Of a DNA stretch of 32,000 nucleotides, positions 17,942-32,000 are shown piece by piece (position 1 is the stretch's first letter; each line of letters starts with the position of its first letter). Source of the DNA: Candidatus Methylomirabilis oxygeniifera (GTDB taxonomy: Bacteria > Methylomirabilota > Methylomirabilia > Methylomirabilales > Methylomirabilaceae); contig FP565575.1 of the NCBI GenBank assembly GCA_000091165.1, positions 180,001 through 212,000 of the forward strand, read 5' to 3'. Made by a program: the position numbers and the translations under genes. The notes under the pieces were generated by a model. That model was not told the DNA's origin and searched no databases. It worked only from the letters and a program-made list of their open reading frames with translations.

Positions 17942-17978
17942 GTGTAAATCAGACTTATAACTTGCTTTTTGCACAAAC

Positions 17979-19190
17979 GTGGAGCATCATCTCACCATGA
18001 TCGCTCGAGACATCTCAGAAGAACTTGTCCGATCCGCCGCGGAGTATCCTGTAGTAACCATCCTGGGTCCTCGCCAATCAGGCAAGACCACGCTGGCCCG
18101 GATGACGTTTCCGGACACACCGTACTTTTCCCTGGAAGACCCGGATGTCCGGATCGCAGCCGAGGCCGATCCGCGAGGGTTCCTCAGCCAGATGGAGGGC
18201 GGCGGCATCCTGGATGAGGTGCAGCGTGTCCCGGCGCTCCTGTCCTATGTCCAGGGAATAGTCGATAAGACCAAACAGCGTGGCCGGTTTATCCTGACCG
18301 GCAGTCATCAGCCGCAACTGCATGAGGCAATCAGTCAGTCGCTGGCAGGCCGAACTGCCGTGCTAACCCTGTGGCCGTTCTCGCTTCACGAGCTCGGTCG
18401 TTACAAGTCCGCGCGGGACCCCTTCGGCCTGATCGTACGCGGATGCTTTCCGCGGCTTCACGAAGAGGGTCTCGAGCCGCGTAGGTTCTTCAACGGCTAC
18501 CTGCAGACCTACGTCGAGCGCGATGTGCGCGCATTGATTCAGTTGCGCGACCTGTCGCCGTTTCAGCGGTTCCTCACGTTGTTGGCGGGCCGGGTGGGAC
18601 AGGTCGTCAATCTTGCTTCGCTCTCCAACGATGTCGGCGTATCGACCACGACCATCAGGAATTGGCTCTCCGTTCTGAAAGCGTCGTATGTCGTATTCGA
18701 ATTACCACCGTTCTTCGAGAACATCCGAAAGCGTGTGATCAAATCCCCTAAAATATTTTTTACAGATGTGGGTCTCGCAACCTTTCTGCTGGGTATCCAT
18801 ACCGAACAACAGGCATTTCGCGATCCCTTGCGCGGAAGCCTCTATGAGAACCTCATCATTGCGGACATTGTGAAGGGCGCTCTCAACAAAGGGATCAGGC
18901 CGGAGATCTATTTTTTCCGCGACTCTCACGGGAACGAGGTTGACTTGCTCATCCGAGAAAAAGGCGTGATGACGCCGGTCGAGATCAAGTCCGCCGGGAC
19001 GTTTTCCGTGGATTTCGTCAAAGGGGTCGAGCGTTTTCGAGCGCTGGGCATGACGGGTGTGTCCGCAGGCGCGGTCCTCTATAACGGCGAGCAGGAGTTC
19101 AATGTCCGAGGCGTCCGCATTTTCAATCCGCTTCTTGTTGACAATATCTGGGAGACCTTGACCGCGCCTCCGAGACAGGCAGAATCCTGA
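17979..19190 (+). CDS. AAA-family ATPase with C-terminal DUF4143 (COG1373-type ATP-binding protein)
   Basis: Walker A ILGPRQSGKTTLA, Walker B-like GILDEVQ, then the usual DUF4143 layout. The start is either GTG at 17979 or ATG at 17997. Confidence 0.85.
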   Translation: MEHHLTMIARDISEELVRSAAEYPVVTILGPRQSGKTTLARMTFPDTPYFSLEDPDVRIAAEADPRGFLSQMEGGGILDEVQRVPALLSYVQGIVDKTKQRGRFILTGSHQPQLHEAISQSLAGRTAVLTLWPFSLHELGRYKSARDPFGLIVRGCFPRLHEEGLEPRRFFNGYLQTYVERDVRALIQLRDLSPFQRFLTLLAGRVGQVVNLASLSNDVGVSTTTIRNWLSVLKASYVVFELPPFFENIRKRVIKSPKIFFTDVGLATFLLGIHTEQQAFRDPLRGSLYENLIIADIVKGALNKGIRPEIYFFRDSHGNEVDLLIREKGVMTPVEIKSAGTFSVDFVKGVERFRALGMTGVSAGAVLYNGEQEFNVRGVRIFNPLLVDNIWETLTAPPRQAES

Positions 19191-19406
19191 CTCAGAGCGA
19201 ACGGCCGGTGCGGATGCACTCTGACTCGTGCGGTGGAGCGCCAGAGACCACACGCTGGTGTCCGCCAGCGCCTTCATCGGTGCGCGCGCTGCTTTTTGTA
19301 ATCGTATGCGGGATCGTAGTCGATCGTCCCGAATAGCGAGCCGATCTTGTCCTGCTTCAGGGCGGGGTTACGAGGTGGGCAGCGCAACGCCCGCGATAGT
19401 TCCGGC

Positions 19407-20729
19407 TTACGCCTTAATGACCTTGTCTGGGGGGAATCCCTTGAAGGCGTTTCGCGTATCCACAATGAGCCGGGCGTGGCGACCGATCAACTCAAGGTCA
19501 AATGCCGAGTGGTGTGTTGCCAGGATGACCAGATCCTGCGCCTGGAGGGTCTCAGCCGTCAGGGGGATGGCGGTCAGATCGAGATCAGGATAGTGACGAT
19601 GACCGTAGCACCGTGGGACGTGGGGATCTGAGTAATTCACCTGAGCGCCCTGTTGCCGAAGCAACGTCAGGATCTCCAGGGCGGGGCTCTCTCGTTGATC
19701 ATCAATATTCGGCTTGTATGCCACCCCCAGGACCAGAACCTTGGCGCCGTTCAGCGACTTGCCTCTCTTGTTCAGCGCTTCCACAACCTTTCCCACCACC
19801 CAGGTAGGCATAGCGTGATTGATCTCGCCGGCCAGCTCGATAAAGCGGGTGGCCATGCCGTACTCGCGGGCCTTCCAGGTCAGATAGAAGGGATCGATGG
19901 GGATACAGTGCCCGCCAAGGCCCGGTCCGGGATAGAAGGCCTGAAAGCCAAAGGGCTTCGTCGCTGCGGCGGCGATCACTTCCCAGATGTCGATCCCCAT
20001 GCGGTCCGAGAGCATCTTCAGCTCATTCACCAACGCGATGTTGACTGCCCGGTAGATATTCTCCAGAAGCTTGGTCATTTCGGCCGCCTTGGGCGAGGTG
20101 ACCCGGACCACCGTGGGCACAATCGTGGTGTAGAGCGCCTCTCCCAGTTCGCCGCAGGCGTCCGATACCCCGCCGAGAACCTTGGGCATGGTGGCCAACC
20201 CGAACTGCGTATTGCCCGGATCCTCACGCTCCGGTGAGAAGACCAGAAAGAAATCCTCCCCCGCCTTCAGTCCTCTCGCCTCAAAGCGCGGCAGGAGAAG
20301 CTCCTCAGTAGTGCCCGGGTAGGTGGTGCTCTCCAGACAGATGAGCTGACCGACCCGCAGGGTTTGGGCAATGGCGTCCGCCGTCTGCGTGACGTACCGA
20401 AGGTCAGGATTTCGATGACGCGTCAACGGCGTCGGGACACAGATGACCAGCGCGTCGGCCTCCCCAAGGCGGGTGAAGTCAGAGGTGGCTTCAAACCGGC
20501 TCGACCTGGACAGGGAGGCGATCCGATCTGCCGGGAGATGCCGGATATAGCTCTCGCCGGCGGCAAGCCGTTTGACCTTGTGGGGGTCGATGTCGAACCC
20601 CAGCACCCGGAAACCGACCTCCCCAAAGCGCACGACGGCGGGCAGCCCGACATAGCCCAGGCCGATGACGCCCACCGTATAGTTTCGCCGCGCGATGCGA
20701 TCCTTCAGATGCGGGATGCGCGATGTCAT
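19407..20729 (-). CDS. Nucleotide-sugar dehydrogenase (UDP-GlcNAc / UDP-ManNAc 6-dehydrogenase type, UDP-glucose/GDP-mannose dehydrogenase family)
   Basis: Rossmann motif VGVIGLGYVGLP. ESTTYPGTTEE. FSPEREDPGN. Catalytic-Cys region GLGGHCIPIDP. C-terminal VLVLGVAYKPNIDDQRESPA. Confidence 0.9.
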   Translation of the reverse strand: MTSRIPHLKDRIARRNYTVGVIGLGYVGLPAVVRFGEVGFRVLGFDIDPHKVKRLAAGESYIRHLPADRIASLSRSSRFEATSDFTRLGEADALVICVPTPLTRHRNPDLRYVTQTADAIAQTLRVGQLICLESTTYPGTTEELLLPRFEARGLKAGEDFFLVFSPEREDPGNTQFGLATMPKVLGGVSDACGELGEALYTTIVPTVVRVTSPKAAEMTKLLENIYRAVNIALVNELKMLSDRMGIDIWEVIAAAATKPFGFQAFYPGPGLGGHCIPIDPFYLTWKAREYGMATRFIELAGEINHAMPTWVVGKVVEALNKRGKSLNGAKVLVLGVAYKPNIDDQRESPALEILTLLRQQGAQVNYSDPHVPRCYGHRHYPDLDLTAIPLTAETLQAQDLVILATHHSAFDLELIGRHARLIVDTRNAFKGFPPDKVIKA

Positions 20730-21088
20730 CGTGTGTCCTTTCCCCTTACGACACGACGGCGATTGCCGGCGCCGTGAAGGCTGAACGACCGCGTCACACG
20801 TGTCCTGAGTATTCCCGACAGAAAATCATCGCAATCAGAGTAGCACCCCGACAATGAGGTCGGCAATGGCGAAGATGCTGTCGGCGACATCAACGAAGTG
20901 TGCGACATATCGATCGACCGGTTCGGCGAAAAATGCTACCACTGGTGATTGCGATCAGGATATACTCACCAGCGAGCCGCATCTCGCGCAGGCGGAGGCC
21001 TGTCCTTGATGCTTCATTCGTGTATCATGTGGGGAAAACCGGCAATATTGCCAATGGCAGGGGTAACCTGGGGAGAGGAGGAAGGGTG

Positions 21089-21649
21089 ATGACTGTTCGA
21101 CTGAAACTCGATGGCGTCATTGGACTCGTGCTGCTGATCGTGATGACCTCGATGGTTGTGGCCGCCCCGGTGTTCGCGAAAGACATGCCCGCATGGAAGG
21201 GCAGCGGGGGGACGCGACCCGTTGACAAGAACGGGTCACCTCGCAGCCAGTCGAAGACATCAAGCTTCTTTCTTGCCCCTGGTGAGGGGGTCATAGGGGG
21301 ATTTACCGCCATACCCATGGGTGACAGCATTGAGGACGCTATACTGGCCGGACGCAATACCTTCTCGACGGCAGAGACGATCGAGTTCGACGGGATTCTG
21401 TTTGATACAGGGATAGCAGGGACCAGCATTGAGTTCTGGGTGTACCTTTTCGATATAAGGGGCCAATTGTTAACCGTTGGGTATTATTTTGATGAAAGCG
21501 CCCCATCGGACAGGACAGCTTTCTATCTTCAAAAGGATGCCGGAACGACTCCGCCGGGTGTGTACAAGTGGCTGATGGAGTTCCATGACACCTTCGGGAA
21601 CTACTTTATCACACCGATCCAAACCTTCGAGGTCGTGGAGGCTTTGTAA
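21089..21649 (+). CDS. Small secreted hypothetical protein (186 aa)
   Basis: I moved the start to ATG 21089 (GGAGAGGAGGAAGGG just upstream; GTG 21086 is also possible). Signal peptide VIGLVLLIVMTSMVVAAPVFA-KD. No recognisable domain and no C-terminal sorting signal. Confidence 0.55.
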   Translation: MTVRLKLDGVIGLVLLIVMTSMVVAAPVFAKDMPAWKGSGGTRPVDKNGSPRSQSKTSSFFLAPGEGVIGGFTAIPMGDSIEDAILAGRNTFSTAETIEFDGILFDTGIAGTSIEFWVYLFDIRGQLLTVGYYFDESAPSDRTAFYLQKDAGTTPPGVYKWLMEFHDTFGNYFITPIQTFEVVEAL

Positions 21650-21683
21650 TCGCCTTCTCGCCCGTGCCGACTCGCGTGCGTCA

Positions 21684-22829
21684 CTATGAAGTGCGGTCGA
21701 TCGCTGCAGCCTCTAACGTGGCGGCCAGCTCCCCCCAGGAAAAGTGCTGCCGTTGTAGGATGTGTCGGCGAAATGTACTCCCTAAGTCTTCCGTGTAGAA
21801 GCGAATAATCGCCTTCGCCAGCGCGGTTGGGTTGCGCGGCTCGACCAGAAGACCGGTTTCGCCGTCACGGACAGCCTCCGGCAGCCCGCCCACGGCAGTG
21901 GCCAGCACCGGTCGCTCGAAGGCAAAGGCAATCGGGACGATGGCGCTCTGTGTTGCTGATTCGTAGGGGAGGACGACTAAATCGGCTGCGGAGAAGTAGA
22001 GGCTGACCTTGCCGGCAGGGACGAACTGATCTATAATTCTGACCCTGGATTGGAGACCGAGTTCAGAAATGAGCTTGAGGCACTGGTCCTTTCCCTCGTA
22101 AAACTCCCCTACCACCAACAGGGTGCATTCCATCTCCTTCAGAACCAGGGGGAGGGCTTGGATGAGGGACGGAAGCCCTTTGTACTGTCGTATGAGACCG
22201 AAAAAGAGAAGAAGGTTGCCTGAAAAGCCAAGGCTGGATTTGGCCTCCTCCCTGTTGAGCGGAGTTCCATATCCTTGGGCGGGGGGCTGGGGGATCAGAT
22301 AGACCGGTCCGTCAAGGCCGAGTTCCGTCAGGCGCTGCCTGTCAGTTTCAGAATGGACGACCCAAGCCTGTCCTTGACTCAGCGCCAGGCGGGTGAGCGC
22401 CGTTGCCGCCGGGAACGGCTCGTGTGGCAAGACGTTGTGACAGATAAACACGACCCGCGTATTGCGGGATCGCCGCCTGACCATGCGAATTGTCGTCCCG
22501 AGGCAGGGGGCAAAGAAGGGATGCCACCAGTGGACAACCACGAGGTCCGGTGTCTCATGACTGATATATCCGGCAACCTGTAACCAGTTGAAGGGGTTGA
22601 TGGAGTCCAACATAGGGATCGGGAGCCGCCGAACCTCATCCTGGCACAGAGGCGCAGGTGGATCCGGATCAAACTGAGTCCGGCCAGGGAAGATGAAAGA
22701 CGGATACTGGCGACAAAAGGAGAGCGGAGTTATCTGATGAGTCTTGCTCAATTCATGACAAAGCTGGGTATTGTAGTGGGCAATCCCGCCCCTGAGGGGG
22801 GGCGCCGGACCGATCACGAATATTTTCAT
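21684..22829 (-). CDS. Glycosyltransferase family 4
   Basis: I moved the start to ATG 22829 (MKIFVIGPAPPLRGGIAHYN). C-terminal SATQSAIVPIAFAFERPVLATAVGGLPEAVRDGETGLLVEPRN. Confidence 0.85.
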   Translation of the reverse strand: MKIFVIGPAPPLRGGIAHYNTQLCHELSKTHQITPLSFCRQYPSFIFPGRTQFDPDPPAPLCQDEVRRLPIPMLDSINPFNWLQVAGYISHETPDLVVVHWWHPFFAPCLGTTIRMVRRRSRNTRVVFICHNVLPHEPFPAATALTRLALSQGQAWVVHSETDRQRLTELGLDGPVYLIPQPPAQGYGTPLNREEAKSSLGFSGNLLLFFGLIRQYKGLPSLIQALPLVLKEMECTLLVVGEFYEGKDQCLKLISELGLQSRVRIIDQFVPAGKVSLYFSAADLVVLPYESATQSAIVPIAFAFERPVLATAVGGLPEAVRDGETGLLVEPRNPTALAKAIIRFYTEDLGSTFRRHILQRQHFSWGELAATLEAAAIDRTS

Positions 22830-22880
22830 GGTACGGGAAGTATACCGCCTCTGCGCAGATCGGGAAAGTGTAAGCGTTTC

Positions 22881-24662
22881 ATGTCGCATCTATTCCCGAC
22901 TGTCATCTTTGCTGTTCTTGCGCTGGTGTGGCACCCTGCCTTCGCTGACGCCCAGGTGTATGTGGCGAATAGCGGCTCCGGGACGGTCTCGGTCCTGAGC
23001 ACCCCGGATCATGCCCTGATCGCCGAGATCCCTGTTGGGGCCCTGCCTTCGCGGATCGCGGTGACACCGGATGGGGCGTTCGTGTATGTCACGAATGAAA
23101 ATAGCGGGACCATGTCGAAGATCAGCGCGGCGAGCAACAGTGCTGTAGCCACGATCTCGGTCGGCGCCCTGCCGAAGGGAGTGGCGATCAGCGCGGACGG
23201 ATTGTCCGTGTTCGTCATCGCAGACAGTATGTTGAAACAGTTTCACGTTGCCACGGATGCACCCGTCAGGGCGTATTCGCTTCCTATCGGGGTGCCGGTT
23301 GATGTGGCTCTATCGCCGGATGGGACGTTCGCCTATGTCGTTGATAAGAATCAGAATATCTGTTCGGTCTACCCCATCAATCTGACGACTGGGGCGGTTA
23401 TAACCAGTACGGAGTGCGCGAACGGGGTGTCGATCGGGGCGATAGGCGGAAGCTACCCAGTGACTCTCGCCATCCGCCCCGATGGGCAGTTTGTCTACGT
23501 CACAACGCCCCAGGATGGGGCCATGCAGGTTGTTCGGCTCTCCGATAATATTCGCGTTGGCGGAGGGTGTGCCATGGGTCCCGGCCCATTAGGCTGTGCT
23601 CTTGGTGGCCCGAACAGCGTGGCAGTATCCGCGGACGGAGGATTCGCCTTCACGGCCAACTCCAACAACAAGACTGTCAGCATCTTCGCCATTGACCAGG
23701 TCAGCGGCCTTCCGGCGGTTCCTGTCCGTGTGGCGCTGCCAACGAAACCCTCCTATCTCGATGTCACCCCGGACGGCACGCGCCTGTATGTAAGCCACGG
23801 GTCCAATTCGGTCTCCGTCATCGACCTGACGTCCAATCCACCCGCGCTGACCGGCACATTGACCGTCGGTAACGGTCCGCTCGGCGTAGCAGTATCGCCG
23901 CTCGCCTCCGGCGGGGGCGGGGGCGGGGGCGACCCCCAGACCCTCTCGGTAACTCCCGCCAGCCTTACCTTTACCGGAGAGCAGGGCCTCGGCGATCCGG
24001 CCGCGCAAGCGGTCCAGGTGGGCGCCAGTGGAATGACGGCCCTATCATGGAGTCTGGCCGCAACCGGACAGGACCCTGGCGCCGGATCCTGGCTGAAGGC
24101 CGATCTGCTCGCAGGCACAGCCCCTCCGACCGGTTCCGTACAGATCTCGGCGGGTACCTGCGGGCTTGCAGCCGGAACCTATCTTGGAACGATCAGCGTA
24201 GCCTCGGGCCAGGCAAGCAACAGCCCGCAGTCGATCCCGGTCTCGCTGACCGTGGCCGCACCGGCCGGACTGTTGGCTGCGCCCTCGGTGAGGGTCTGCG
24301 CCGATCGCCAGACCTATCAACCCGGGCAGGCGCTGGAAATCAGGGTCTCGCTGCGTCAAGGGGTGTCGTCCAATTCTGGAGATGCCTATCTCTTTGCCGG
24401 TATTCCTGGTGACGTAAACTTTGTGTCGCTGGTGTGGTCTGAGCAGGGGATAGGCGTGAATTACGGCCCGGCGCCGGTTCCGTTCGGAACGAATTTTCAA
24501 GTAGCCGATTTCTCCGGGTTGATCTTTGAGCGGGTATTTGACGCCTCCGATCCGCAGGGGACCTATGACCTCCAGGCGATCCTGGCTGTGGCGGGCAGCG
24601 ATCCGACAATAGAAGCGAATCGACTGGCTGCCTCAACGATCAATTTCAGCGTGACGCCGTAA
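22881..24662 (+). CDS. Secreted YVTN-family beta-propeller protein with poly-Gly linker and C-terminal BACON/Ig-like domains
   Basis: I moved the start to ATG 22881, giving the signal peptide VIFAVLALVWHPAFA-DA. About seven repeats of the form (V/F)YV(A/T)N..S.TVSV(I/L). G7 linker. LSVTPASLTFTGEQG...YLGTISVASG resembles a BACON domain. Confidence 0.8.
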   Translation: MSHLFPTVIFAVLALVWHPAFADAQVYVANSGSGTVSVLSTPDHALIAEIPVGALPSRIAVTPDGAFVYVTNENSGTMSKISAASNSAVATISVGALPKGVAISADGLSVFVIADSMLKQFHVATDAPVRAYSLPIGVPVDVALSPDGTFAYVVDKNQNICSVYPINLTTGAVITSTECANGVSIGAIGGSYPVTLAIRPDGQFVYVTTPQDGAMQVVRLSDNIRVGGGCAMGPGPLGCALGGPNSVAVSADGGFAFTANSNNKTVSIFAIDQVSGLPAVPVRVALPTKPSYLDVTPDGTRLYVSHGSNSVSVIDLTSNPPALTGTLTVGNGPLGVAVSPLASGGGGGGGDPQTLSVTPASLTFTGEQGLGDPAAQAVQVGASGMTALSWSLAATGQDPGAGSWLKADLLAGTAPPTGSVQISAGTCGLAAGTYLGTISVASGQASNSPQSIPVSLTVAAPAGLLAAPSVRVCADRQTYQPGQALEIRVSLRQGVSSNSGDAYLFAGIPGDVNFVSLVWSEQGIGVNYGPAPVPFGTNFQVADFSGLIFERVFDASDPQGTYDLQAILAVAGSDPTIEANRLAASTINFSVTP

Positions 24663-24742
24663 GTGATCTCGTGAATGTGTGCCGTTGGATCATACTTATC
24701 CAACATAAGATTCTTGAAGGACCGGATGTGGACAACATTGTT

Positions 24743-25015
24743 AAAATCTCCCCTCGCCCCTCTTTTCCAAAGAGGGGTATTCACCATATTTCCCCCTTTC
24801 GCAAAGGGGGGGTAAGGGGGGATTTGAACGATCAGAAAAACCCCCTCAATCCCCCTTTGCAAAAGGGGGAGAAGAAGTAGATGTGCAAGCATGTGGTCCC
24901 CCCTTGCCTGCCAAAGGGGGAGAAGAGGTAGCAGGTGGTCCCCCCCTTTGGAAAAGGGGGGCTAGGGGGGTTTTCCCTTTGCTGAAGAGGGAGAAAGGGT
25001 AGGGGGAGGGGATTT
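24743..25015. repeat. Array of at least 6 C5/G5 nested-hairpin (PPFxKGG-type) repeat units, in both orientations
   Basis: Units include TCCCCCTTTCGCAAAGGGGGGGTAAGGGGGGATTT, AAACCCCCTCAATCCCCCTTTGCAAAAGGGGGAGAAGAAGTAGATGTGCAAGC and GGTCCCCCCCTTTGGAAAAGGGGGGCTAGGGGGGTTTT. They fill most of the 512-bp gap between the YVTN and BNR genes. Confidence 0.85.
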
Positions 25016-25174
25016 CCGATTCCTACCTGCTTGTGCGTATCTGTAACGCAGACAGGTTCATTCACGCTAATTCCAGAAGAACCATAATTTATAGCCTTCA
25101 ATATTTAGCCTAAACACCTGAGTCGTGACGAGTCATCGACAATACACAATAACTGAAATGGAGGTAATGCCTAC

Positions 25175-26698
25175 ATGAGGATCCACCGTGGCTGGTGTTG
25201 GCGGCTGATCGCTCTTGCGCTTCTTGGAGGTCTGACCGCTTGCGCCATGATCAGGGAACCATCGCCGGCCCCCTCTGCAGGGACTGTTCGAAGGCCGCGT
25301 CCTGCAACACCCCAGGAGCCGCAGGCGCCGGGTTTCTTTTCGCCGCTGCTGACCTTTGGGGGGGATAATGAACTCTATCTGATGTGGGCGTCGGGCACGC
25401 TGTATAAGAAGCAGAACGATATCCATTTCTCCCGATCCGTAGACGATGGGCTGACATGGGATGCGCACAAATCCCTCAAGGCGGATCCGACGCGTAATAC
25501 AGGGGGAAGACAGATTGTGGCCGATCGGAACGGGAATGTCATGGCCTTCTGGGGGGCCGGGCTGCGGACAGGCAACATCGATGTGGTGGCGGCGCGCTCG
25601 GAAGATCATGGCGCCAATTGGACTCCGCCTCAAGGTCTCTATAAGGGCGAGATCCATGTTCCCAGTCTCATCACCGGACCGAACGGGGAGTATGTCAGCA
25701 TCATTCCGGAGGGCCCGGAATCGAATTGGAGGCTGGTGTTCTTCCGTTCGGTCGATGGCGGAAAGATCTGGGAACAGCTCCCAACACTGAACGGTACACT
25801 CGGGACGGATTCTCAATTCGGGATTCGATCGTCACAGATCGTTGCCGACCGTAATGGCCGGCTCCATGTCGTCTGGCAGGAGCGTGGGCGCGGACAAAGA
25901 GAACGAATCTATTACAACAGGCTCGAGTCGGCGAACGCGCACGGGGCATGGCTGCCTGAGGCCGTTCAATTAAGCGCGGGAGAAGCCGACTCCTCCGGGG
26001 CCTATCGTCCTCAGATCAGTGTCGATGCGGACGGTCATCTCTTCGTGGCGTGGGTGGAGGCATGGGACCCCGGTAACGCCGCTCTTGGTGAGGGACAGCA
26101 CCCGCAGTCGGTCTACTTTACGCGATCGATGGATGGAGGGCGAACCTGGCTCGCACAGCCGATTCGACTGAGTCGAACGGGACCGGAAGCTCTCCGCCAC
26201 GTGGCGACCCACGTTGAGGTAGCCAATGATGGGAAGGGCCGGATCTATGTCGCATGGCGAGAGGAGGTCGGTTTTCCCAGAGTGGAACGGCTGGTCTTCC
26301 AAGGGTCCACGGACTATGGGGCGACGTGGATCTCTGAACCTCGATCCCTGCGTGAGATCAAACCCTTCCCCGCCATCCACGCGCGGTTCCATCTGAAGAG
26401 CGGCGAGAACGGCCGTGTCTACCTTCTCTGGCAGATGGCGGGTTTTGCCTGGGATCTGTTCTTTATGCAATCGACTGATGGGGGGATGACGTGGTCGAAG
26501 GCGCCGATCCGCCTGGCCACCCTGCCGCAGACCGACCCCGGCGCCCATGATGTGGCCTTTGAGACGAGAGGATCACACCTGTATGTGGCCTGGGACATCG
26601 GGCCGAAGCTTCCGAGCGAGATCTTTGTGAATCGTTCAACCGATTTTGGCAGGACATGGCTGACCCGAGAGGTGCAGGTCACCAAGCGAGAACCGTGA
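25175..26698 (+). CDS. BNR/Asp-box repeat beta-propeller lipoprotein (sialidase-fold)
   Basis: GGAGG lies 10 nt upstream. Lipobox LLGGLTA-C. Seven S-x-D-x-G-x-(T/I/N)-W boxes: SVDDGLTW, SEDHGANW, SVDGGKIW, SMDGGRTW, STDYGATW, STDGGMTW, STDFGRTW. Confidence 0.85.
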   Translation: MRIHRGWCWRLIALALLGGLTACAMIREPSPAPSAGTVRRPRPATPQEPQAPGFFSPLLTFGGDNELYLMWASGTLYKKQNDIHFSRSVDDGLTWDAHKSLKADPTRNTGGRQIVADRNGNVMAFWGAGLRTGNIDVVAARSEDHGANWTPPQGLYKGEIHVPSLITGPNGEYVSIIPEGPESNWRLVFFRSVDGGKIWEQLPTLNGTLGTDSQFGIRSSQIVADRNGRLHVVWQERGRGQRERIYYNRLESANAHGAWLPEAVQLSAGEADSSGAYRPQISVDADGHLFVAWVEAWDPGNAALGEGQHPQSVYFTRSMDGGRTWLAQPIRLSRTGPEALRHVATHVEVANDGKGRIYVAWREEVGFPRVERLVFQGSTDYGATWISEPRSLREIKPFPAIHARFHLKSGENGRVYLLWQMAGFAWDLFFMQSTDGGMTWSKAPIRLATLPQTDPGAHDVAFETRGSHLYVAWDIGPKLPSEIFVNRSTDFGRTWLTREVQVTKREP

Positions 26699-27450
26699 AG
26701 GCCGGTCAGACCGATCCGAAAACCCGCCGCCACAAGCCTGCGGCCGCGCTGTCGAACCGAGGATTCCATGATCGCGAGTGGTGGCCGGTTCTTGTCATCG
26801 TCGTAGTGACGGGCATAGTGTATGCCAATGCCTTTCAGAATGAGTTTCTCTTCGATGATCTTCAGACCATTGTGGAACTCCAGCAAGGAGGAGGGAAGGG
26901 GGCCTTCGCCGACGTCGTAGAGCTACTGCGTGGTCGGCCGTCGTATCGACCCGTCAGAACCGCCTCCTATGCGTTCGACTATGCCCTTTCAGGGCTTGAG
27001 CCGTGGGGGTATCATCTGACCAATATCGTCTACCACACGCTGACGGCGGTATTCGTGTACCTGACGGCCAGGTCTGTGTTTGGCCGGGTCCGCCCGGCGC
27101 TCCTGACGGCCCTGCTGTTCGCGATCCACCCCATCCAGACGGATGCTGTAACCTACATGTCCGGCCGCCGCGATGTCCTCTCCGGCCTGTTCGTTCTGGC
27201 CGGTTTCTATCTTTACGTGCGATATCGGACAACAGGCCGTATCTGGTATCTTGCGGCCGTACTTCCGGTATATGTGCTGGGCTTCTTTTCCAAGGAGAGC
27301 GGGATCATCCTGCCGGCCCTCTGCGTGGCGTACGATGTCTTCAGACATCTGACTCGGGAGGAACACCATGAGGCGGAGGCGGCCTACGGCGTACGAAACC
27401 CCCCTAACCCCCCTTTCGCAAAGGGGGGCCACGGGGGGGGATTTGGCTAA
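26695..27450 (+). CDS. N-terminal membrane part of a TMTC-like GT-C glycosyltransferase (fragment; probably one gene with 27501-28631)
   Basis: The likely GTG start at 26695 overlaps the BNR stop (GTGA); the track's ATG at 26656 would overlap by 43 nt. IVYANAFQNEFLFDDLQTIV is the typical TMTC/PMT_2-like opening. The ORF ends inside a repeat, reading ...RNPPNPPFAKGGHGGGFG*. Confidence 0.7.
   Translation: MKAGQTDPKTRRHKPAAALSNRGFHDREWWPVLVIVVVTGIVYANAFQNEFLFDDLQTIVELQQGGGKGAFADVVELLRGRPSYRPVRTASYAFDYALSGLEPWGYHLTNIVYHTLTAVFVYLTARSVFGRVRPALLTALLFAIHPIQTDAVTYMSGRRDVLSGLFVLAGFYLYVRYRTTGRIWYLAAVLPVYVLGFFSKESGIILPALCVAYDVFRHLTREEHHEAEAAYGVRNPPNPPFAKGGHGGGFG
27396..27444. repeat. C5/G5 nested-hairpin repeat inside the GT-C gene, with a G8 homopolymer
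   Basis: AAACCCCCCTAACCCCCCTTTCGCAAAGGGGGGCCACGGGGGGGGATTT: an outer C6/G8 stem and an inner CCCCCCTTT/AAAGGGGGG stem. Confidence 0.85.
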
Positions 27451-27500
27451 TAGACTTTTCTAAGGTATGGACAGGGCAGAAGCCGGCGCCGTTCGGAAAC

Positions 27501-28631
27501 GTGTGGGCGGCGATCAGGGGGGCCGTGTGGGAGTCCAGGTGGCTGTACCTGCCGATGGCTGCCATCGGGGGCGGCCTTGCGGCATACGTCCTGCTGCTGG
27601 TGCGCGGAACCTGGCAACAGGATTATCACGGCGGAAGCCTGTGGTTTACGCTGCTGACGATGGCGAGGGTCTTCTCGTATTATCTCAGGCTTCTCATTCT
27701 TCCCGTAAATCTGAATGCCGACTACTCCTACAATGCCTTTCCTGTCACCACCTCGTGGGCTGACCCGAGCGCAGGACTGGCTGTGCTGTTTCTCGCCGGC
27801 CTGTGGTACGCGATCCTGGTCTGCGCCAGAATCAGGCCGGTAGCCGCGTTTGGGGGCGCCTGGTTTTTTCTAGCGTTGCTGCCGGTGTCGCAGATTATTC
27901 CGCATCACGAGATGGTGGCTGAGCACTACGTGTACGTTCCATCGGTCGGGTTTGCCGTGGCCGTGGCGGGGCTGTTCGATCCCTTGCTGGATGATCCTCT
28001 CCGCCGCCGGGTCCTGTACCCGGCAGGCCTGCTTGTACTCATGCTGCTTTCAGTCAGGACGGTATGGCGGAACTTCGATTGGCGGGACGAGTTGACGCTG
28101 TGGCGGAAGACTGTGCAGACCGCGCCGGATTCGGCGAGGGCGCGGAACAATCTGGGTGGGGCATATCTTCGGTCCGGTCAACCGACATTGGCCGAGACGC
28201 ACCTCGAGGCCGCCCTGCGCATCAGGCCCGACTTCGCCTCGGCCAGGGCCAACATGGGGAAGCTGTATATGGACCGTGGAGATCTTGATATGGCCGAACG
28301 TGAACTGAATACCGCATTGATACTGAAGCAGCGCGACGCGATACCGCGTTTATGGCTGGGCGTCGTCCAGGCCCGTAAGGGTGAGATCGCCGCAGCCGAA
28401 GCCCAGTTTCGAACGACGATGGACACATTCCCGTACGGAGCGTATGCGTACAACAACATGGGAGTGCTGTTTGTCCGGACCGGTCGGCTTGCTGAGGCTG
28501 AGTCGCTTTTCCGTGAGGCGTTGCGGCTGATGCCGGAGCTGACCGAGGCCAGGGATAATCTGGCGCGCTTATCTCGGATCGACGGCTCAGGCATTCCTCC
28601 GGTCGGACCAGGGATGGCGGGCACGCCGTGA
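27501..28631 (+). CDS. C-terminal part of the TMTC-like GT-C protein: TM segments (DUF1736-like) plus TPR repeats
   Basis: This frame is open from 27372. HHEMVAEHYVYVPSVGFAVAVAG resembles the DUF1736 AERxLYxPSxG block. At least five TPR-like repeats follow (ARNNLGGAYLRSGQ..., ARANMGKLYMDRGD..., AYNNMGVLFVRTGR...). Confidence 0.75.
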   Translation: MWAAIRGAVWESRWLYLPMAAIGGGLAAYVLLLVRGTWQQDYHGGSLWFTLLTMARVFSYYLRLLILPVNLNADYSYNAFPVTTSWADPSAGLAVLFLAGLWYAILVCARIRPVAAFGGAWFFLALLPVSQIIPHHEMVAEHYVYVPSVGFAVAVAGLFDPLLDDPLRRRVLYPAGLLVLMLLSVRTVWRNFDWRDELTLWRKTVQTAPDSARARNNLGGAYLRSGQPTLAETHLEAALRIRPDFASARANMGKLYMDRGDLDMAERELNTALILKQRDAIPRLWLGVVQARKGEIAAAEAQFRTTMDTFPYGAYAYNNMGVLFVRTGRLAEAESLFREALRLMPELTEARDNLARLSRIDGSGIPPVGPGMAGTP

Positions 28632-29569
28632 CAGAGCAGGTCAAGCCGCTGATATCCGTAATCGTCCCTCTCTACAACGAAGCGGAAAGCGTGCCGGAAC
28701 TCTATTCCGAGCTGGCCGAGGCGCTGAGGCCGCACTCAGATCGATGTGAAATGATATTCGTCGACGATGGCAGTCGTGATGGGTCGTGTGAAAGACTCCA
28801 GGCGATCCGGGAAACGGATGCGCGGGTCAAGATCGTTCGGTTACGTGTCAACCAGGGCAAGTCGACGGCATTGCAGGCCGGTTTCAGGGAGGCCGAAGGG
28901 CAAATCATTGTCACGCTTGATGCCGATCTGCAGGATGATCCAAAAGAGATTCCAAGGTTTCTTCAGAAGCTTGAAGAAGGGTTCGATCTTGTATCCGGCT
29001 GGAAGGTGAAGCGCTACGATCCGTGGTTCCGCCGGTTTCTTTCCGCTATCTTCAACCGGATAACCTCACGGTTTACCGGTGTCAGGCTGCACGATTTCAA
29101 CTGCGGTTATAAGGCCTACCGGCGAGCAGTCATAGGCGAATTGCGCCTGTACGGGGAGTTGCACCGCTTTATTCCGGTGCTGGCAAGCTGGCGGGGTTTC
29201 AGGATCGGTGAGATCGAGGTCGCCCACCGCGCGCGGCGCTACGGTCTGTCCAGGTATGGGATAGAGCGGATACCCAGAGGGTTCTTCGACCTGCTGACCG
29301 TGCTGATGCTGACGCGGTATACGACACGCCCCCTGCACTTTTTCGGCTTGGTCGGGGTGCTGGTCGGCTTGATCGGGTTTGGGATTATCGGGTATCTCTC
29401 GATCGGATGGCTGTTCGGCCAGTGGATAGGTGGCCGCCCCCTTTTCATTCTGGGAACGCTGATGGTCATTGGCGGCCTGCAGCTTGTGTCGTTTGGGCTG
29501 TTGGCAGAGATGATCGTCTACGGCTCCACGCGGGAAAGCGATCCCCCCATCGATCTGGTCCTCAAATAA
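28628..29569 (+). CDS. GT2 polyprenyl-phosphate sugar synthase (DPM1/ArnC/GtrB-like) with two C-terminal TM helices
   Basis: GTG start overlaps the upstream stop (GTGA). ISVIVPLYNEAESV, MIFVDDGSRDGS, VTLDADLQDDPKEIP (DxD region). C-terminal hydrophobic hairpin FFGLVGVLVGLIGF...ILGTLMVIGGLQLVSFGLLAEM. Confidence 0.9.
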   Translation: MTEQVKPLISVIVPLYNEAESVPELYSELAEALRPHSDRCEMIFVDDGSRDGSCERLQAIRETDARVKIVRLRVNQGKSTALQAGFREAEGQIIVTLDADLQDDPKEIPRFLQKLEEGFDLVSGWKVKRYDPWFRRFLSAIFNRITSRFTGVRLHDFNCGYKAYRRAVIGELRLYGELHRFIPVLASWRGFRIGEIEVAHRARRYGLSRYGIERIPRGFFDLLTVLMLTRYTTRPLHFFGLVGVLVGLIGFGIIGYLSIGWLFGQWIGGRPLFILGTLMVIGGLQLVSFGLLAEMIVYGSTRESDPPIDLVLK

Positions 29570-29618
29570 CGCAGAGTCAAAGAATAACATGTACATATTC
29601 ATGATCCGAAAAATGCGC

Positions 29619-29660
29619 AAACCCCCTCTTCCCCTTTCGAAAGGGGGATGAAGGGGGTTT
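29619..29660. repeat. Complete nested-hairpin repeat; likely a bidirectional intrinsic terminator after the GT2 operon
   Basis: AAACCCCCTCTTCCCCTTTCGAAAGGGGGATGAAGGGGGTTT is an almost perfect 42-bp palindrome. It is followed by GTTGCTTTGG, and on the other strand by TTTGCGCATTTTT. It lies 50 nt after the GT2 stop. Confidence 0.6.
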
Positions 29661-29765
29661 GTTGCTTTGGTAGATGTAAATGTTAATTGTTGACGCCTCC
29701 TAACGCTGGCTCTTCCGAAATGAGCATGGGTAGAGACCGAGTCTTCAGCGCTGGACACGGGGACA

Positions 29766-29848
29766 CCCCCTTTGGTAACGGGGGAGAAAAGAAGGATATG
29801 CAAGCGTCTGGTCCCCCCCCTTTGGAAAAGGGGGGCTAGGGGGGTTTC
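29766..29848. repeat. Composite repeat unit (two hairpins plus a conserved linker) abutting the DUF559 start
   Basis: CCCCCTTTGGTAACGGGGGAGAAAAGAAGGATATGCAAGCGTCTGGTCCCCCCCCTTTGGAAAAGGGGGGCTAGGGGGGTTTC. The linker and second hairpin match 24877-24975. Confidence 0.85.
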
Positions 29849-29851
29849 TCA

Positions 29852-30202
29852 TTGATCCTGCCCTACAATAAGGACCTCAAAGGTTATGCCCGCTCCCTGC
29901 GGAAGAATATGACCGACGCCGAGCGAACACTGTGGTCCCTGATCAGGCGAAAGCAAGCGAAAGGCCGTCTCTTTTCACGTCAAAAGACGATTGACAATTA
30001 CATTGTGGATTTTTACTGCGCCTCAGCCGCACTCGTCATCGAACTTGATGGAGGACAACATTATACGCCGGAGGGTCGTGAGCAGGACCGATGGCGCGAT
30101 GCTGACCTGGCGGCGCGTGGGTTGACAGTGTTGAGGTTTTCCGATCGGGACGTGCTGACAAATCTTGAAGGCGTACTAGAAGAGATCTGGCAACATCTCT
30201 GA
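29852..30202 (+). CDS. DUF559 endonuclease-domain protein (Vsr-like, PD-(D/E)xK superfamily)
   Basis: TTG start. LPYNKDLKGYARSLRKNMTDAERTLWSLIRRKQ...FSRQKTIDNYIVDFYCASAALVIELDGGQH...RDADLAARGLTVLRFSDRDVLTNLEGVLEEI is the typical DUF559 layout with the D...E-x-D core. Confidence 0.85.
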   Translation: MILPYNKDLKGYARSLRKNMTDAERTLWSLIRRKQAKGRLFSRQKTIDNYIVDFYCASAALVIELDGGQHYTPEGREQDRWRDADLAARGLTVLRFSDRDVLTNLEGVLEEIWQHL

Positions 30203-30214
30203 GGGAAAGAAGCG

Positions 30215-30261
30215 AAACCCCCTCAATCCCCCTTTACGAAAGGGGGAGACAGAGTAGATGT
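30215..30261. repeat. Nested-hairpin repeat unit immediately downstream of DUF559, inverted relative to 29821-29848
   Basis: AAACCCCCTCAATCCCCCTTTACGAAAGGGGGAGACAGAGTAGATGT is nearly identical to 24838-24884. Confidence 0.85.
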
Positions 30262-30369
30262 AGAACTCCCGTGTCCAGCAACCCAGGTTATGGGACATGG
30301 TCAGCTCTCGGAGGGAGAGAGAAGGACAAAGCAACCCACACGAGTTCCGGAAGAGTCCCGAAATAACGC

Positions 30370-31017
30370 TCATCGCTTGTGTGTGGCAGCCCCCTTTGCA
30401 CGCTTTCGGCGGCTGGGCTTGACCTCCGCTGTTTGGGCGTGCTGCGGCCACCAGAAGGCTGTCGCCGCAAACCAGAGCAGGATCGGGAAGAGACCGAACC
30501 CGTTGACGGAAAAGAAGGCGTAGCCCCACTCGTACAGCTTGACTGTAAACGAAGAAGCGGCCTCAGGCATCATGCCGTGCGCCTGCAGCCCTGGATAGAC
30601 GGCGGTCCAGCGTAGCTTGATGTACAGGTCGGCAAGATGCAGCATCGACAGCCCCGCCCCACCGGCCAGGCAGATCTTGGCTTTCGTTGCCAGGCCAAGC
30701 AGCGGCGTGGCAATGGTCAGGGAGACGAGCAGGATCATGTTGACGTAGGTGGCGTCGTCGAGCACATTGACGGTGGCCATGCCGGCAGACCCATCCGACT
30801 TGGTCACTGGTCTGACGATCCAGACCCGCCGATCCCTAGCTTCGAGATGACTGTCCGGCGGAAGCATCCCCGTCGCATGCAGAATGGTCTGCCCGACCGT
30901 AGCCATTCCCTGAGCGTACAAAGGGGAGAGGAAACGCCAGACGGCGAGCAGCAGCAACAGCGCAATGGTAAACCATGCGGTGAAACGGCCGATTCTAGCT
31001 CTGAGGGTGGCGAGCAA
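30370..31017 (-). CDS. Exosortase-associated polytopic membrane protein (start uncertain)
   Basis: About four TM segments, with a basic C-terminal tail KPSRRKRAKGAATHKR. The track start (31125) and the ATG at 31080 would overlap real exosortase TM coding by 131 or 86 nt. A TTG at 31017 gives LLATLRARIGRF followed by a TM segment, with only a 23-nt overlap. Confidence 0.5.
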   Translation of the reverse strand: MLATLRARIGRFTAWFTIALLLLLAVWRFLSPLYAQGMATVGQTILHATGMLPPDSHLEARDRRVWIVRPVTKSDGSAGMATVNVLDDATYVNMILLVSLTIATPLLGLATKAKICLAGGAGLSMLHLADLYIKLRWTAVYPGLQAHGMMPEAASSFTVKLYEWGYAFFSVNGFGLFPILLWFAATAFWWPQHAQTAEVKPSRRKRAKGAATHKR

Positions 31018-31513
31018 GGGCCCCTGCCCAGAATAGCCAGAGGCCCAGGGCGAAGACGATGAAGAGCGACTGCCAGACATAGATATGCGCGGTGTCAAAG
31101 TACGGGCGAAAGTGGCTTCCGACATAGATCAGGCTGAGCACCCGCATCAGGTTCAGAATATACAGCGCGCCGCTGCCCAGGAGCACGCCCCAGAGACGTT
31201 GTCGCCAGGTCGCCGGATAAGCGAGTATTGCCGACACGAACAGGGCCGTCTCGTAGATGGCGTTGCAATTGTTCTGAATCGCCACCGAGAAGAGGGGGGT
31301 TGTGACCACCTTGTCATGCACCGTGGCCTCCGTCCCGCCGAGCAGCAGAATGGTTCGCGCGAGTTGAGCGATTCCCCTGGTAAAAGGATCGACAAGCTGT
31401 CGGTCCAGACCGTACAGCAGGCCGAACAGGCCCAGGATATACAGGCCAAACAGCAGTGCGCTGCGTCGGATCTGGGCGCGAGGAGATGGTGATTCAACCT
31501 CTGAGGTTTGCAT
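30995..31513 (-). CDS. Short-form exosortase/archaeosortase-family transpeptidase (XrtH/XrtF size class)
   Basis: 172 aa. Candidate catalytic Cys in FSVAIQNNCNAIYETALFVSAILAYP, Arg in LYILNLMRVLSLIYVG and His in DTAHIYVWQ, in the order expected for the Cys/Arg/His exosortase core. Multi-TM. No clear RBS. Confidence 0.7.
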   Translation of the reverse strand: MQTSEVESPSPRAQIRRSALLFGLYILGLFGLLYGLDRQLVDPFTRGIAQLARTILLLGGTEATVHDKVVTTPLFSVAIQNNCNAIYETALFVSAILAYPATWRQRLWGVLLGSGALYILNLMRVLSLIYVGSHFRPYFDTAHIYVWQSLFIVFALGLWLFWAGALARHPQS

Positions 31514-31617
31514 AGGTGGATTTTACGGTGATCCTGAATTGTCAGTCAAGCAATTTTCATTCTTCAACCTTTAGTCTTTCGCTTAAATACCTGAGCAGCT
31601 CCGCTATGCCGGGCGCC

Positions 31618-31646
31618 TTGACAGCGGCATGGCTTCATGTTACAAA
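31618..31646 (+). promoter_or_regulatory. Possible sigma70 promoter for the downstream Tat-signal gene
   Basis: TTGACA (31618-31623), a 17-nt spacer, then TACAAA (31641-31646). The -10 is weak because it lacks the final T. Confidence 0.3.
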
Positions 31647-31678
31647 CCTACGGGCGCTACTCAGGTGGATAGCAACTG

Positions 31679-31739
31679 AAGGCTGAAGGCTGTGAGGGGT
31701 AAAGCGGTGACGATGCGTGAGAACGTATCGCCTTCAGCC
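31679..31739 (+). promoter_or_regulatory. Long hairpin in the putative 5' leader of the Tat-signal gene
   Basis: An 11-bp perfect stem, AGGCTGAAGGC (31679-31689) pairing with GCCTTCAGCCT (31729-31739), with a 39-nt loop containing a second small stem (GATGCG/CGTATC). The left arm is part of a tandem GAAGGCT GAAGGCT. Confidence 0.35.
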
Positions 31740-31771
31740 TGAACGCCTCAGTAGTGACGGTGGAGGTTGGT

Positions 31772-32000
31772 ATGGGGTGTTGTATCCATTTGACCAGGCG
31801 GCAGTTTCTGAGCGCGGCAATGACGCTGGCCGCTATAGCGCCGTCGTGGCTGCCGAGGCCGGCCGAGGCCGCCCCTACCCCTGTTCCCGTTCCAAAGACG
31901 TTGGGTCGAACAGATGCCCTGCTGAAGGAGATCATTACGACCTATGCGTCCGTAGAAGACGACCCATGGGTCCTGATGCACGGAGTGAGGGCCTTAGGAT
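31772..32000 (+). CDS. Partial ORF (runs off the window) for a protein with a twin-arginine (Tat) signal peptide
   Basis: Absent from the ORF track because no stop falls in the window. GGAGG lies 5 nt upstream of the ATG. MGCCIHLTRRQFLSAAMTLAAIAPSWLPRPAEA-A contains the T-R-R-x-F-L Tat motif. The frame has no stop through nt 32000. Confidence 0.6.
   Translation, partial: MGCCIHLTRRQFLSAAMTLAAIAPSWLPRPAEAAPTPVPVPKTLGRTDALLKEIITTYASVEDDPWVLMHGVRALG

What the first reader, a model, noticed from the sequence alone, without database searches (positions are those of the whole stretch)
27372..27501. TMTC-like GT-C glycosyltransferase is split exactly at a hairpin repeat carrying a G8 tract
ORFs 26695-27450 (frame 1) and 27501-28631 (frame 3, open from 27372) are the N- and C-terminal parts of one TMTC/PMT_2 + DUF1736 + TPR architecture. 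The break falls inside the repeat AAACCCCCCTAACCCCCCTTTCGCAAAGGGGGGCCACGGGGGGGGATTT. The upstream frame reads through it as RNPPNPPFAKGGHGGGFG and then hits TAA. There are two independent ways to restore a single ORF of about 645 aa. The first is removing the 50 nt at 27397-27446, which joins ...AAYGVR to LIDFSKVWTGQKPAPFGNVWAAIRG... in frame. The second is adding one G to the G8 run. The locus is therefore one of four things: a gene recently inactivated by repeat insertion, a homopolymer sequencing or assembly error, a slipped-strand (phase-variable) switch, or a -1 frameshift site. The downstream GT2 start overlaps the stop of the second fragment (GTGA), which argues that the second fragment is still translated.
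Basis: seen in the sequence. Interest (0 to 1): 0.65.

Follow-up and report, generated by a model that had tools for sequence, protein, structure and literature searches.

The report
Split glycosyltransferase: likely one-base sequencing error
The glycosyltransferase gene looks broken in two only because this genome record has eight G's where every other assembly of the same bacterium that reads through the tract has nine; the real gene is most likely intact and simply carries a harmless, translated hairpin-repeat insert in a floppy loop.

Summary
Two ORFs (26656/26695-27450 and 27501-28631) are the halves of one PMT_2 + DUF1736 + TPR protein, and the break lies in a nested-hairpin repeat with a G8 run (27433-27440). 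The split is almost certainly not biological. The window is Ca. Methylomirabilis oxyfera. Other assemblies of the same strain show no substitutions where they overlap the window and differ at two sites. Both sites are bases missing from the window inside copies of this repeat: G8 vs G9 here, and a missing TC at 29631. With G9 the gene is one 658-aa ORF (KAB2958745.1). G9 is read in two MAGs and in a Logan contig seen in 7 read sets; no other assembly reproduces the split. A Logan assembly of an old run (SRR023516) shortens 8-mers elsewhere and fails to assemble this hairpin. The repeat did not inactivate the gene. Orthologues at 95% and 86% nt identity carry the same insert with G6, in frame. 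AlphaFold places it in the only disordered internal loop. The real feature is a 102/105-nt insert, present or absent among close strains, resembling Rickettsia palindromic elements. A genuine slipped-strand variant cannot be excluded without reads.

The parts
26656..27450 (+). N-terminal fragment of the GT-C/TPR gene as it reads in this record (PMT_2 domain). The deposited annotation starts at GTG 26695 (251 aa, P0123).
27501..28631 (+). C-terminal fragment (frame 3, open from 27372): TMTC_DUF1736-like membrane part plus TPR repeats. It is identical to P0008.
27364..27467 (+). Insert block: 104 nt here, 105 nt in G9 assemblies, 102 nt in G6 orthologues. It is absent from the empty alleles L003 and L007. 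In L001 it is flanked by an (A)GGAA direct repeat.
27396..27446 (+). Nested-hairpin repeat core: outer arms AAAC6 and G8ATTT, inner hairpin C6TTT-CGC-AAAG6. It is a member of a dispersed family.
27433..27440 (+). G8 run. It reads G9 in every other same-strain assembly that reads through it and G6 in orthologues L001 and L002. This one-base difference causes the apparent split.
28628..29569 (+). GT2 glycosyltransferase whose start overlaps the GT-C stop (GTGA). The overlap is the same in all intact orthologues.
29619..29660 (+). Intergenic sibling copy of the nested hairpin. The window lacks 'TC' at 29631 relative to all other assemblies, including the one from old run SRR023516.
24745..24973 (.). 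Intergenic cluster of four further copies of the repeat family (24745-24777, 24792-24821, 24841-24869, 24940-24970), in both orientations.
29766..29848 (.). Two further intergenic copies (29766-29784 and 29813-29844).
30214..30247 (+). Further intergenic copy of the repeat family.

Best explanation
The split is most likely an artefact of this genome record: a one-base undercall (true G9, recorded G8) in a long G run inside a G+C-rich nested hairpin. In the organism the gene is a single 658-aa ORF encoding a membrane GT-C-type (PMT_2/TMTC-like) glycosyltransferase with a C-terminal TPR domain. It is translationally coupled to the downstream GT2 gene. The hairpin repeat is a genuine, older in-frame insertion. 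It is translated as ...VR-NPPNPPFAKGGHGGGIW-LIDFSK... and sits in a disordered hydrophilic loop between transmembrane helices, where it is tolerated. Shown: the sequence differences between assemblies, the in-frame orthologues, and the loop prediction. Inferred: that G8 is a base-calling or finishing error rather than a real variant of the 2010 population.
For: (1) The exact '+1 G' protein exists as P0121 = KAB2958745.1, 658 aa. It is encoded in two other assemblies, ENA ERZ24907703 (976-kb contig) and GCA_009026205.1 (42-kb contig). (2) These are the same strain. Window 16656-32000 against L005 and L006 shows no substitutions and only two indel sites. At both sites bases are missing from the window, and both lie inside copies of this hairpin family: G8 vs G9, and CTCTT--CCCC vs CTCTTTCCCCC at 29631. 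Window 1-19395 is 100% identical to L008 and L009, and window 1-10320 to L011. (3) A Logan contig found in 7 read sets (L015) also reads G9. (4) No other assembly reproduces the split. The 376-aa and 251-aa fragments occur only on the 2.75-Mb contig, and the 264-aa version is not in the collection. (5) At 29631 even the assembly of old run SRR023516 agrees with the modern assemblies against the window, so the window has at least one demonstrable outlier in a sibling hairpin 2.2 kb away. (6) The SRR023516 assembly undercalls 8-mers elsewhere, G8 to G7 at 3302 and A8 to A7 at 11166. Its contigs stop inside the C and G runs on either side of this hairpin, which shows the site was hard to read with that data. 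(7) Orthologues L001 (95.5% nt) and L002 (86.4% nt) carry the same insert with G6 and are in frame. G6 and G9 are both in frame, so selection keeps the gene open. (8) In the AlphaFold2 model (pLDDT 86.3, pTM 0.86) the only internal segment below pLDDT 50 is 251-271, inside the insert (block 237-270 in P0001), in a coil between helices 214-243 and 277-292. Hydropathy places it in a 72-residue hydrophilic loop.
Against: No raw reads could be inspected. A real G8 variant in the 2010 enrichment population, later replaced by or coexisting with G9, cannot be excluded. I could not confirm from a held paper that SRR023516 belongs to the original genome project or which platform produced it; that rests on my recollection and on the error pattern. 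The old-run contigs do not read through the tract, so they do not directly show G9 in 2009-era data. A G9 tract is long enough to slip at an appreciable rate in vivo.
Confidence: 0.8

Rival explanations
1. The tract length varies in vivo by slipped-strand mispairing. The G9 run inside the domesticated repeat slips, and the reference captured a real G8 (OFF) variant of a surface-glycosylation enzyme. This would make it a contingency or phase-variable locus, or simply a transient null allele.
For: A run of 8-9 G's in an ORF is in the length range of known contingency loci (established knowledge). The tract has changed length in evolution, from G6 in L001 and L002 to G9 in M. oxyfera. The gene lies in an exopolysaccharide, glycosyltransferase and exosortase cluster, which is the class of gene that is often phase-variable. 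The SRR023516 contig L016 begins exactly at G8. That is compatible with a graph branch between G8 and longer reads.
Against: Every independent assembly that reads through the tract has the in-frame G9: two MAGs and a contig shared by 7 read sets. The only out-of-frame record is also the outlier at a second hairpin site, where its contemporaneous read set disagrees with it. The evolutionary change G6 to G9 preserved the frame. Orthologues with G6 or with no insert show that the tract is not a conserved switch.
Confidence: 0.15
2. Programmed recoding. The genome truly has G8, and the full-length protein is made by ribosomal frameshifting or transcriptional slippage on the G run, with the hairpin as a stimulator.
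For: The homopolymer lies within a stable nested hairpin (-38 kcal/mol). The downstream frame is open from 27372.
Against: Same-strain assemblies encode the protein in one frame. All orthologues are single-frame, with G6, with a diverged hairpin, or with no insert, so no recoding site is conserved. The hairpin contains the run instead of following it at the spacing a frameshift stimulator needs (what the sequence shows).
Confidence: 0.02
3. The gene was recently inactivated by insertion of the repeat and is now a pseudogene, or it has become two independently functioning genes.
For: The break coincides with a member of a dispersed repeat family. Empty alleles exist in close relatives.
Against: The insert predates the divergence of lineages that are 86-95% identical and is in frame in them. 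With G9 it is in frame in the same strain. There are no substitutions or other lesions in either half relative to the intact allele. None of roughly 100 aligned homologues is encoded as two ORFs at this position.
Confidence: 0.03

Closest known systems
Homopolymer undercalls in early 454/hybrid genome assemblies (apparent frameshifted 'pseudogenes')
   Same: There is a one-base deficit in a run of 8 or more identical bases. It creates an apparent split gene that is absent from later assemblies of the same strain. A read-set assembly of the same era shows the same kind of error at other 8-mers.
   Different: The run lies inside a G+C-rich nested hairpin. That probably also defeated the complementary technologies used for correction. 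This is inference, since the platform and finishing history could not be checked in a held paper.
Rickettsia palindromic elements (RPEs; Ogata et al. 2000, cited from memory): palindromic repeats inserted in frame in protein-coding genes
   Same: A short palindromic member of a dispersed repeat family is inserted in an ORF, keeps the reading frame and is translated. It lies in a predicted surface or disordered loop, and its presence varies among orthologues.
   Different: The phylum is different (Methylomirabilota/NC10) and the sequence family is unrelated. The repeated core is much shorter (~34-50 nt within a 102-nt block whose flanks have no other copy in the DNA examined). Only one coding copy was seen here, and no genome-wide survey was possible.
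REP/BIME-type extragenic palindromes and MITE-like hairpin repeats
   Same: The hairpins are G+C-rich and clustered, sit in both orientations in intergenic regions, and vary in copy number between close strains.
   Different: No associated RAYT or transposase was identified. Whether (A)GGAA is a target-site duplication is uncertain. No Rfam family matches.
Poly-G contingency loci in glycosyltransferase genes of Neisseria, Haemophilus and Campylobacter (established knowledge)
   Same: A poly-G tract sits inside a glycosyltransferase ORF, and its length decides whether the ORF is in frame.
   Different: Out-of-frame length variants were not seen in any independent sample. The tract is a by-product of a hairpin repeat arm. 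Close orthologues have G6 or no tract.
TMTC / PMT_2-type GT-C protein O-mannosyltransferases with TPR domains
   Same: PMT_2 is above the Pfam threshold. There is a DUF1736-like segment, a C-terminal TPR superhelix, a multi-helix membrane domain and an invariant DD motif after the first TM helix.
   Different: The DUF1736 score is only at the threshold. The fold search returned only TPR matches. The sugar donor and acceptor are unknown.

Membership tests
Sequencing/assembly homopolymer error | Independent assemblies of the same strain differ from the record only in homopolymer length at the site | tested here: met
   No substitutions where same-strain assemblies overlap the window. The only differences are G8/G9 and a missing TC in a sibling hairpin.
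Sequencing/assembly homopolymer error | The alternative length restores a full-length ORF collinear with orthologues | tested here: met
   G9 gives the 658-aa protein P0121, which is collinear with P0001 and P0003.
Sequencing/assembly homopolymer error | Raw reads of the original project contradict or poorly support the recorded length | not testable with these tools
   Only Logan contigs of SRR023516 were available, and they stop inside the C and G runs flanking the hairpin. No pile-ups could be inspected.
Phase-variable (slipped-strand) contingency locus | A homopolymer of about 7 nt or more inside the ORF, whose length sets the frame | tested here: met
   G8 or G9 at 27433-27440.
Phase-variable (slipped-strand) contingency locus | In-frame and out-of-frame tract lengths recur among independent samples of the same strain | tested here: not met
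   All other assemblies that read through the tract have G9: L005, L006, and L015 in 7 read sets. The split products occur only on the reference contig.
Phase-variable (slipped-strand) contingency locus | Within-sample read heterogeneity beyond platform stutter | not testable with these tools
   No read-level data were available.
Programmed ribosomal frameshift / transcriptional slippage | The two-frame arrangement is conserved in orthologues | tested here: not met
   All orthologues and the same-strain assemblies are single-frame.
In-frame palindromic repeat insertion (RPE-like) | The inserted sequence belongs to a dispersed repeat family of the genome | tested here: met
   14 matches (7 sites, both strands) against 0.01 expected in the window. 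Copies are also present in L001, L002, L004 and the distant Methylomirabilota MAG L027.
In-frame palindromic repeat insertion (RPE-like) | The insert preserves the reading frame and is part of the predicted protein | tested here: met
   102 nt in L001 and L002 and 105 nt in L005 and L006, all in frame. Translation itself was not shown.
In-frame palindromic repeat insertion (RPE-like) | The insert lies in a loop and does not disrupt the fold | tested here: met
   In the AF2 model the only internal segment below pLDDT 50 is 251-271, a coil between two helices. It lies in a hydrophilic 72-aa loop. This is a prediction only.
In-frame palindromic repeat insertion (RPE-like) | Orthologues without the insert exist (empty site) | tested here: met
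   P0004/L003, P0124/L007 and P0005-P0007 lack the block.
GT-C glycosyltransferase, PMT_2/TMTC-like with TPR | PMT_2 domain above the Pfam gathering score | tested here: met
   40.8-43.5 bits against a cut-off of 26.1.
GT-C glycosyltransferase, PMT_2/TMTC-like with TPR | TMTC_DUF1736 domain | tested here: inconclusive
   26.1-27.0 bits against a cut-off of 27.
GT-C glycosyltransferase, PMT_2/TMTC-like with TPR | Acidic (DD/DE) motif in the first loop after TM1 | tested here: met
   F64, D67 and D68 are invariant in 104 homologues.
GT-C glycosyltransferase, PMT_2/TMTC-like with TPR | C-terminal TPR domain | tested here: met
   Pfam TPR families, PDB profile hits to OGT and CTPR proteins, and Foldseek TPR hits.
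GT-C glycosyltransferase, PMT_2/TMTC-like with TPR | GT-C membrane fold similar to solved PMT/ArnT-type structures | tested here: inconclusive
   The whole-protein Foldseek search was dominated by TPR matches. No GT-C chain was in the top 50, and the membrane domain was not searched alone.

The most novel reading that the evidence does not exclude
The G tract created by the outer arm of a domesticated hairpin repeat is a genuine slipped-strand ON/OFF switch for a surface-glycosylation (GT-C/TPR) enzyme in a slow-growing environmental methanotroph, and the reference genome captured the OFF state. More broadly, a Methylomirabilota hairpin-repeat family would be seeding coding regions with translated, length-unstable inserts.
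Probability: 0.1. Interest if true: 0.5.

Novelty: not a real feature. Interest (0 to 1): 0.15.

Why it matters
The main value is curation. The two ORFs in the reference Ca. Methylomirabilis oxyfera record should most likely be annotated as one 658-aa glycosyltransferase. The record also has at least one further small error in a sibling hairpin (29631), so other 'split genes' at G/C-rich hairpin repeats in this genome deserve suspicion. A secondary point is a tidy example outside Rickettsia of a palindromic repeat living in frame inside a protein-coding gene. It sits in a disordered loop, with filled and empty alleles circulating among recombining close strains. This is modestly interesting for how selfish repeats are tolerated in ORFs, but it is not a new kind of system.

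Tried and rejected
Empty alleles lack 102 nt with different boundaries. (2) A scan of JGI metagenome contigs for the gene-specific junction CCCCCCTTTNGCAAAGGGGGGCCACGGGGGG gave 0 hits, so no population survey of tract lengths was possible. (3) search for related loci in species-representative genomes returned only distant relatives at 30-66% identity, which say nothing about the tract. (4) Literature: the 2010 genome paper is not held. There were no hits for SRR023516, WBTX01 or GCA_009026205, and nothing relevant for Methylomirabilis + frameshift + homopolymer. One broad search was wasted. The sequencing-platform statement therefore rests on recollection and on the error pattern of L010. (5) Rfam has no family for the hairpin. 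(6) The PDB sequence and fold searches returned only TPR matches and do not test the GT-C membrane fold. (7) I looked for terminal inverted repeats or other copies of the non-hairpin flanks of the 102-nt block and found none in about 100 kb of related DNA, so a MITE with defined ends is not established. (8) The single-copy RNA fold z-score of -1.4 is not significant on its own.
Full report
OBSERVATION. A frame-1 ORF runs from ATG 26656 to 27450; the deposited annotation starts it at GTG 26695 (P0123, 251 aa). It reads ...EEHHEAEAAYGVRNPPNPPFAKGGHGGGFG and then meets TAA TAG. Frame 3 is open from 27372 and runs to 28631, with its first start at GTG 27501 (P0008, 376 aa). The break lies in AAACCCCCCTAACCCCCCTTTCGCAAAGGGGGGCCACGGGGGGGGATTT (27396-27446), and the G8 run is at 27433-27440. 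Deleting 27397-27446 gives 641 aa, adding one G gives 658 aa, and removing two G's gives 657 aa. Pfam puts PMT_2 in the first half, and a borderline TMTC_DUF1736 plus several TPR families in the second half. The GT2 gene starts at GTG 28628 and overlaps the stop as GTGA.

THE REPEAT. The hairpin is one copy of a dispersed family. Its 19-nt core matches 14 times (7 sites, both strands) in the window at up to 3 mismatches, against 0.01 expected. All other copies are intergenic: 24745-24973, 29619-29660, 29766-29848 and 30214-30247. The unit has an outer arm AAAC5-6, a 3-5 nt spacer and an inner hairpin C5-7TTT-N2-4-AAAG5-8. In two copies (27396 and 29619) a matching outer G arm is also present. 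This one copy's folding energy is not exceptional against dinucleotide shuffles (z = -1.4), and Rfam has no matching family. The core also occurs in related loci, including a distant Methylomirabilota MAG (L027). It is absent from the loci of two close relatives, L003 and L007. Copy number therefore varies between strains.

WHOSE GENOME. The window's C-terminal fragment sits on a 2,752,854-bp contig, and the named homologues are Candidatus Methylomirabilis.

ORTHOLOGUES READ THROUGH THE REPEAT. The closest full-length homologues are 657-661 aa. P0001 (93% aa identity) reads ...HHGIRPLPNPPFAKGGHGGIWQIGSSKEWTGQK..., and P0003 (81%) reads ...TLPNPPLAKGGHGGIWQVGFSKQWTGQ.... At the DNA level, L001 (95.5% nt identity over the gene) and L002 (86.4%) have the same hairpin at the same position with G6, and both are in frame. 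L004 (90%) has a diverged nested hairpin at this site, also in frame. All of these loci are syntenic: a BNR-like gene, then one GT-C/TPR gene, then GT2 with the same start/stop overlap. The repeat insertion is therefore old and tolerated. It did not break the gene, and the GTGA overlap is simply inherited architecture.

THE SAME STRAIN ELSEWHERE HAS G9. An exact-sequence look-up found the '+1 G' protein, identical at all 658 residues, as KAB2958745.1 (P0121) from M. oxyfera MAGs. The 657-aa '-2 G' version and the 264-aa N-fragment are not in the collection. P0121 is encoded in ENA ERZ24907703 (975,900-bp contig, L005) and in GCA_009026205.1 (42,044-bp contig, L006). Window 16656-32000 against either of them shows no substitutions and two indel sites. 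One is G8 vs G9 at 27433-27440. The other is CTCTT--CCCC vs CTCTTTCCCCC at 29631, which lies inside the intergenic sibling hairpin. Window 1-19395 is 100% identical to L008 and L009, and window 1-10320 to L011. So the record differs from other assemblies of the same strain by three missing bases, all in homopolymer runs of this hairpin family. A Logan contig shared by 7 read sets (L015) also reads G9 and CTCTTTCCCCC.

THE OLD READ SET. Logan contigs from SRR023516 match the window exactly apart from homopolymer lengths. I recall, but could not verify, that this run belongs to the original genome project. Its assembly shortens G8 to G7 at window 3302 and A8 to A7 at 11166, splitting two glycosyltransferase genes in that assembly. 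At the present locus its contigs stop inside the runs: L022 ends at ...GAAACCCCC, and L016 begins at GGGGGGGGATTTGG. The hairpin interior could not be assembled from that data. At 29631 the SRR023516 contig agrees with the modern assemblies and disagrees with the window. The record therefore has a demonstrable outlier in a sibling hairpin, and the contemporaneous data show exactly the error class needed for G9 to be recorded as G8.

WHERE THE INSERT SITS. Empty alleles define the inserted block: P0004/L003, P0124/L007 and the more distant P0005-P0007. The block is 102 nt in the G6 orthologues, 105 nt in the G9 strain, and 27364-27467 in the window. Empty sites read ...GGGAGGAA|TGGACAGG.... The filled site in L001 ends ...CTAAGGAA|TGGACAGG, so it is flanked by an (A)GGAA direct repeat. 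Only the ~34-nt hairpin core has other copies; the flanks of the block are unique in the DNA I hold. Presence of the block is patchy on a tree built with the linker masked. The empty P0124 nests with the filled P0001 and P0121, and the empty P0004 groups with the filled P0003. L001 and L007 are 99-100% identical upstream of the junction but only about 95-98% downstream (92% in the window at the junction itself). This indicates recombination mosaics, although precise deletion between the short direct repeats is an alternative. An AlphaFold2 model of P0001 with 104 homologues (pLDDT 86.3, pTM 0.86) has one internal segment below pLDDT 50. That segment is residues 251-271, which falls within the insert block (237-270) and is a coil between helices 214-243 and 277-292. 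Hydropathy places it in a 72-residue hydrophilic loop.

PROTEIN FAMILY. PMT_2 scores 40.8-43.5 bits against a cut-off of 26.1. TMTC_DUF1736 scores 26.1-27.0 against 27. F64, D67 and D68 are invariant in 104 homologues, which fits the GT-C loop-1 acidic motif. The TPR domain is confirmed by the PDB sequence and fold searches. Those searches were dominated by TPR matches and do not test the membrane fold. The neighbourhood contains GT4 and GT2 glycosyltransferases, Wzy_C, MurJ, polysaccharide deacetylases and exosortase EpsH, which points to a surface polysaccharide or glycoconjugate cluster.

VERDICT. The best explanation (about 0.8) is that the split is a one-base homopolymer undercall in this record and the true gene is a single 658-aa ORF. 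The main rival (about 0.15) is a real G8 variant produced by slippage in the 2010 population. It cannot be excluded without reads, but no other assembly shows an out-of-frame length. Programmed recoding and 'inactivation by repeat insertion' are contradicted by the single-frame orthologues and same-strain assemblies. The real feature is an in-frame, translated hairpin-repeat insert in a disordered loop, polymorphic among close strains. It works like a Rickettsia palindromic element, but I do not claim membership of that family.

LIMITS. I had no read-level data and no proteomics. The platform and provenance of SRR023516 and of the two MAGs could not be verified from the literature. The metagenome scan for more alleles found nothing, and the genome collection gave only distant relatives.

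Noticed in passing
window 29619-29660 (site 29631): This is a second discrepancy between this record and all other assemblies of the same strain, including old run SRR023516. The window lacks 'TC' (CTCTTCCCC vs CTCTTTCCCCC) in an intergenic copy of the same hairpin. With the extra bases the inner stem is a perfect C5/G5.
   Followed up: yes
window 16196-16275 (-): Rfam finds a c-di-GMP-I-GGC riboswitch aptamer (72 bits, gathering score 59, E = 2e-15). It lies just upstream of the minus-strand CARDB/GH123-like gene, called as 676 aa and ending near 14100.
   Followed up: no
window 16546-16753 and 17722-17941: Two direct repeats of about 210 nt (75-81% identical) bracket a PIN_3/RHH_1 toxin-antitoxin pair at about 16794-17440. 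The arrangement looks like a small cassette bounded by repeats.
   Followed up: no
window 29852-30202 (+); L004 7075-7452 (-); absent in L001, L003, L007: A DUF559/MTES_1575 endonuclease-like gene sits between clusters of the hairpin repeat. It is on the opposite strand in relative L004 and missing from three other relatives. This suggests an indel or inversion bounded by the hairpin repeats.
   Followed up: partly
L010 (Logan SRR023516), window positions 3302 and 11166: The old-run assembly shortens G8 to G7 and A8 to A7, producing two artefactual split GT4 genes in that assembly. The reference is correct at those sites.
   Followed up: yes
L001 vs L007 (orthologous loci): The two loci are 99-100% identical upstream of the insert site but 92-98% downstream. 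Filled and empty alleles are therefore recombination mosaics among closely related Methylomirabilis populations.
   Followed up: partly
window 24663-25174 vs L001 2291-2520: The intergenic region holding four hairpin copies is 512 nt in the window. It is only about 229 nt, with no core-pattern match, in the 95%-identical relative L001. This indicates recent expansion or loss of the repeat family.
   Followed up: partly
window 1-32000: The whole window is a surface-glycan locus. It contains MurJ, polysaccharide deacetylases, several GT4 genes, FemAB-like and GH123-like genes, UDP-glucose/GDP-mannose dehydrogenase, a beta-propeller protein, a BNR protein, the GT-C/TPR gene, GT2 and exosortase EpsH. 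Wzy_C lies just upstream of the window start in the other assemblies.
   Followed up: partly
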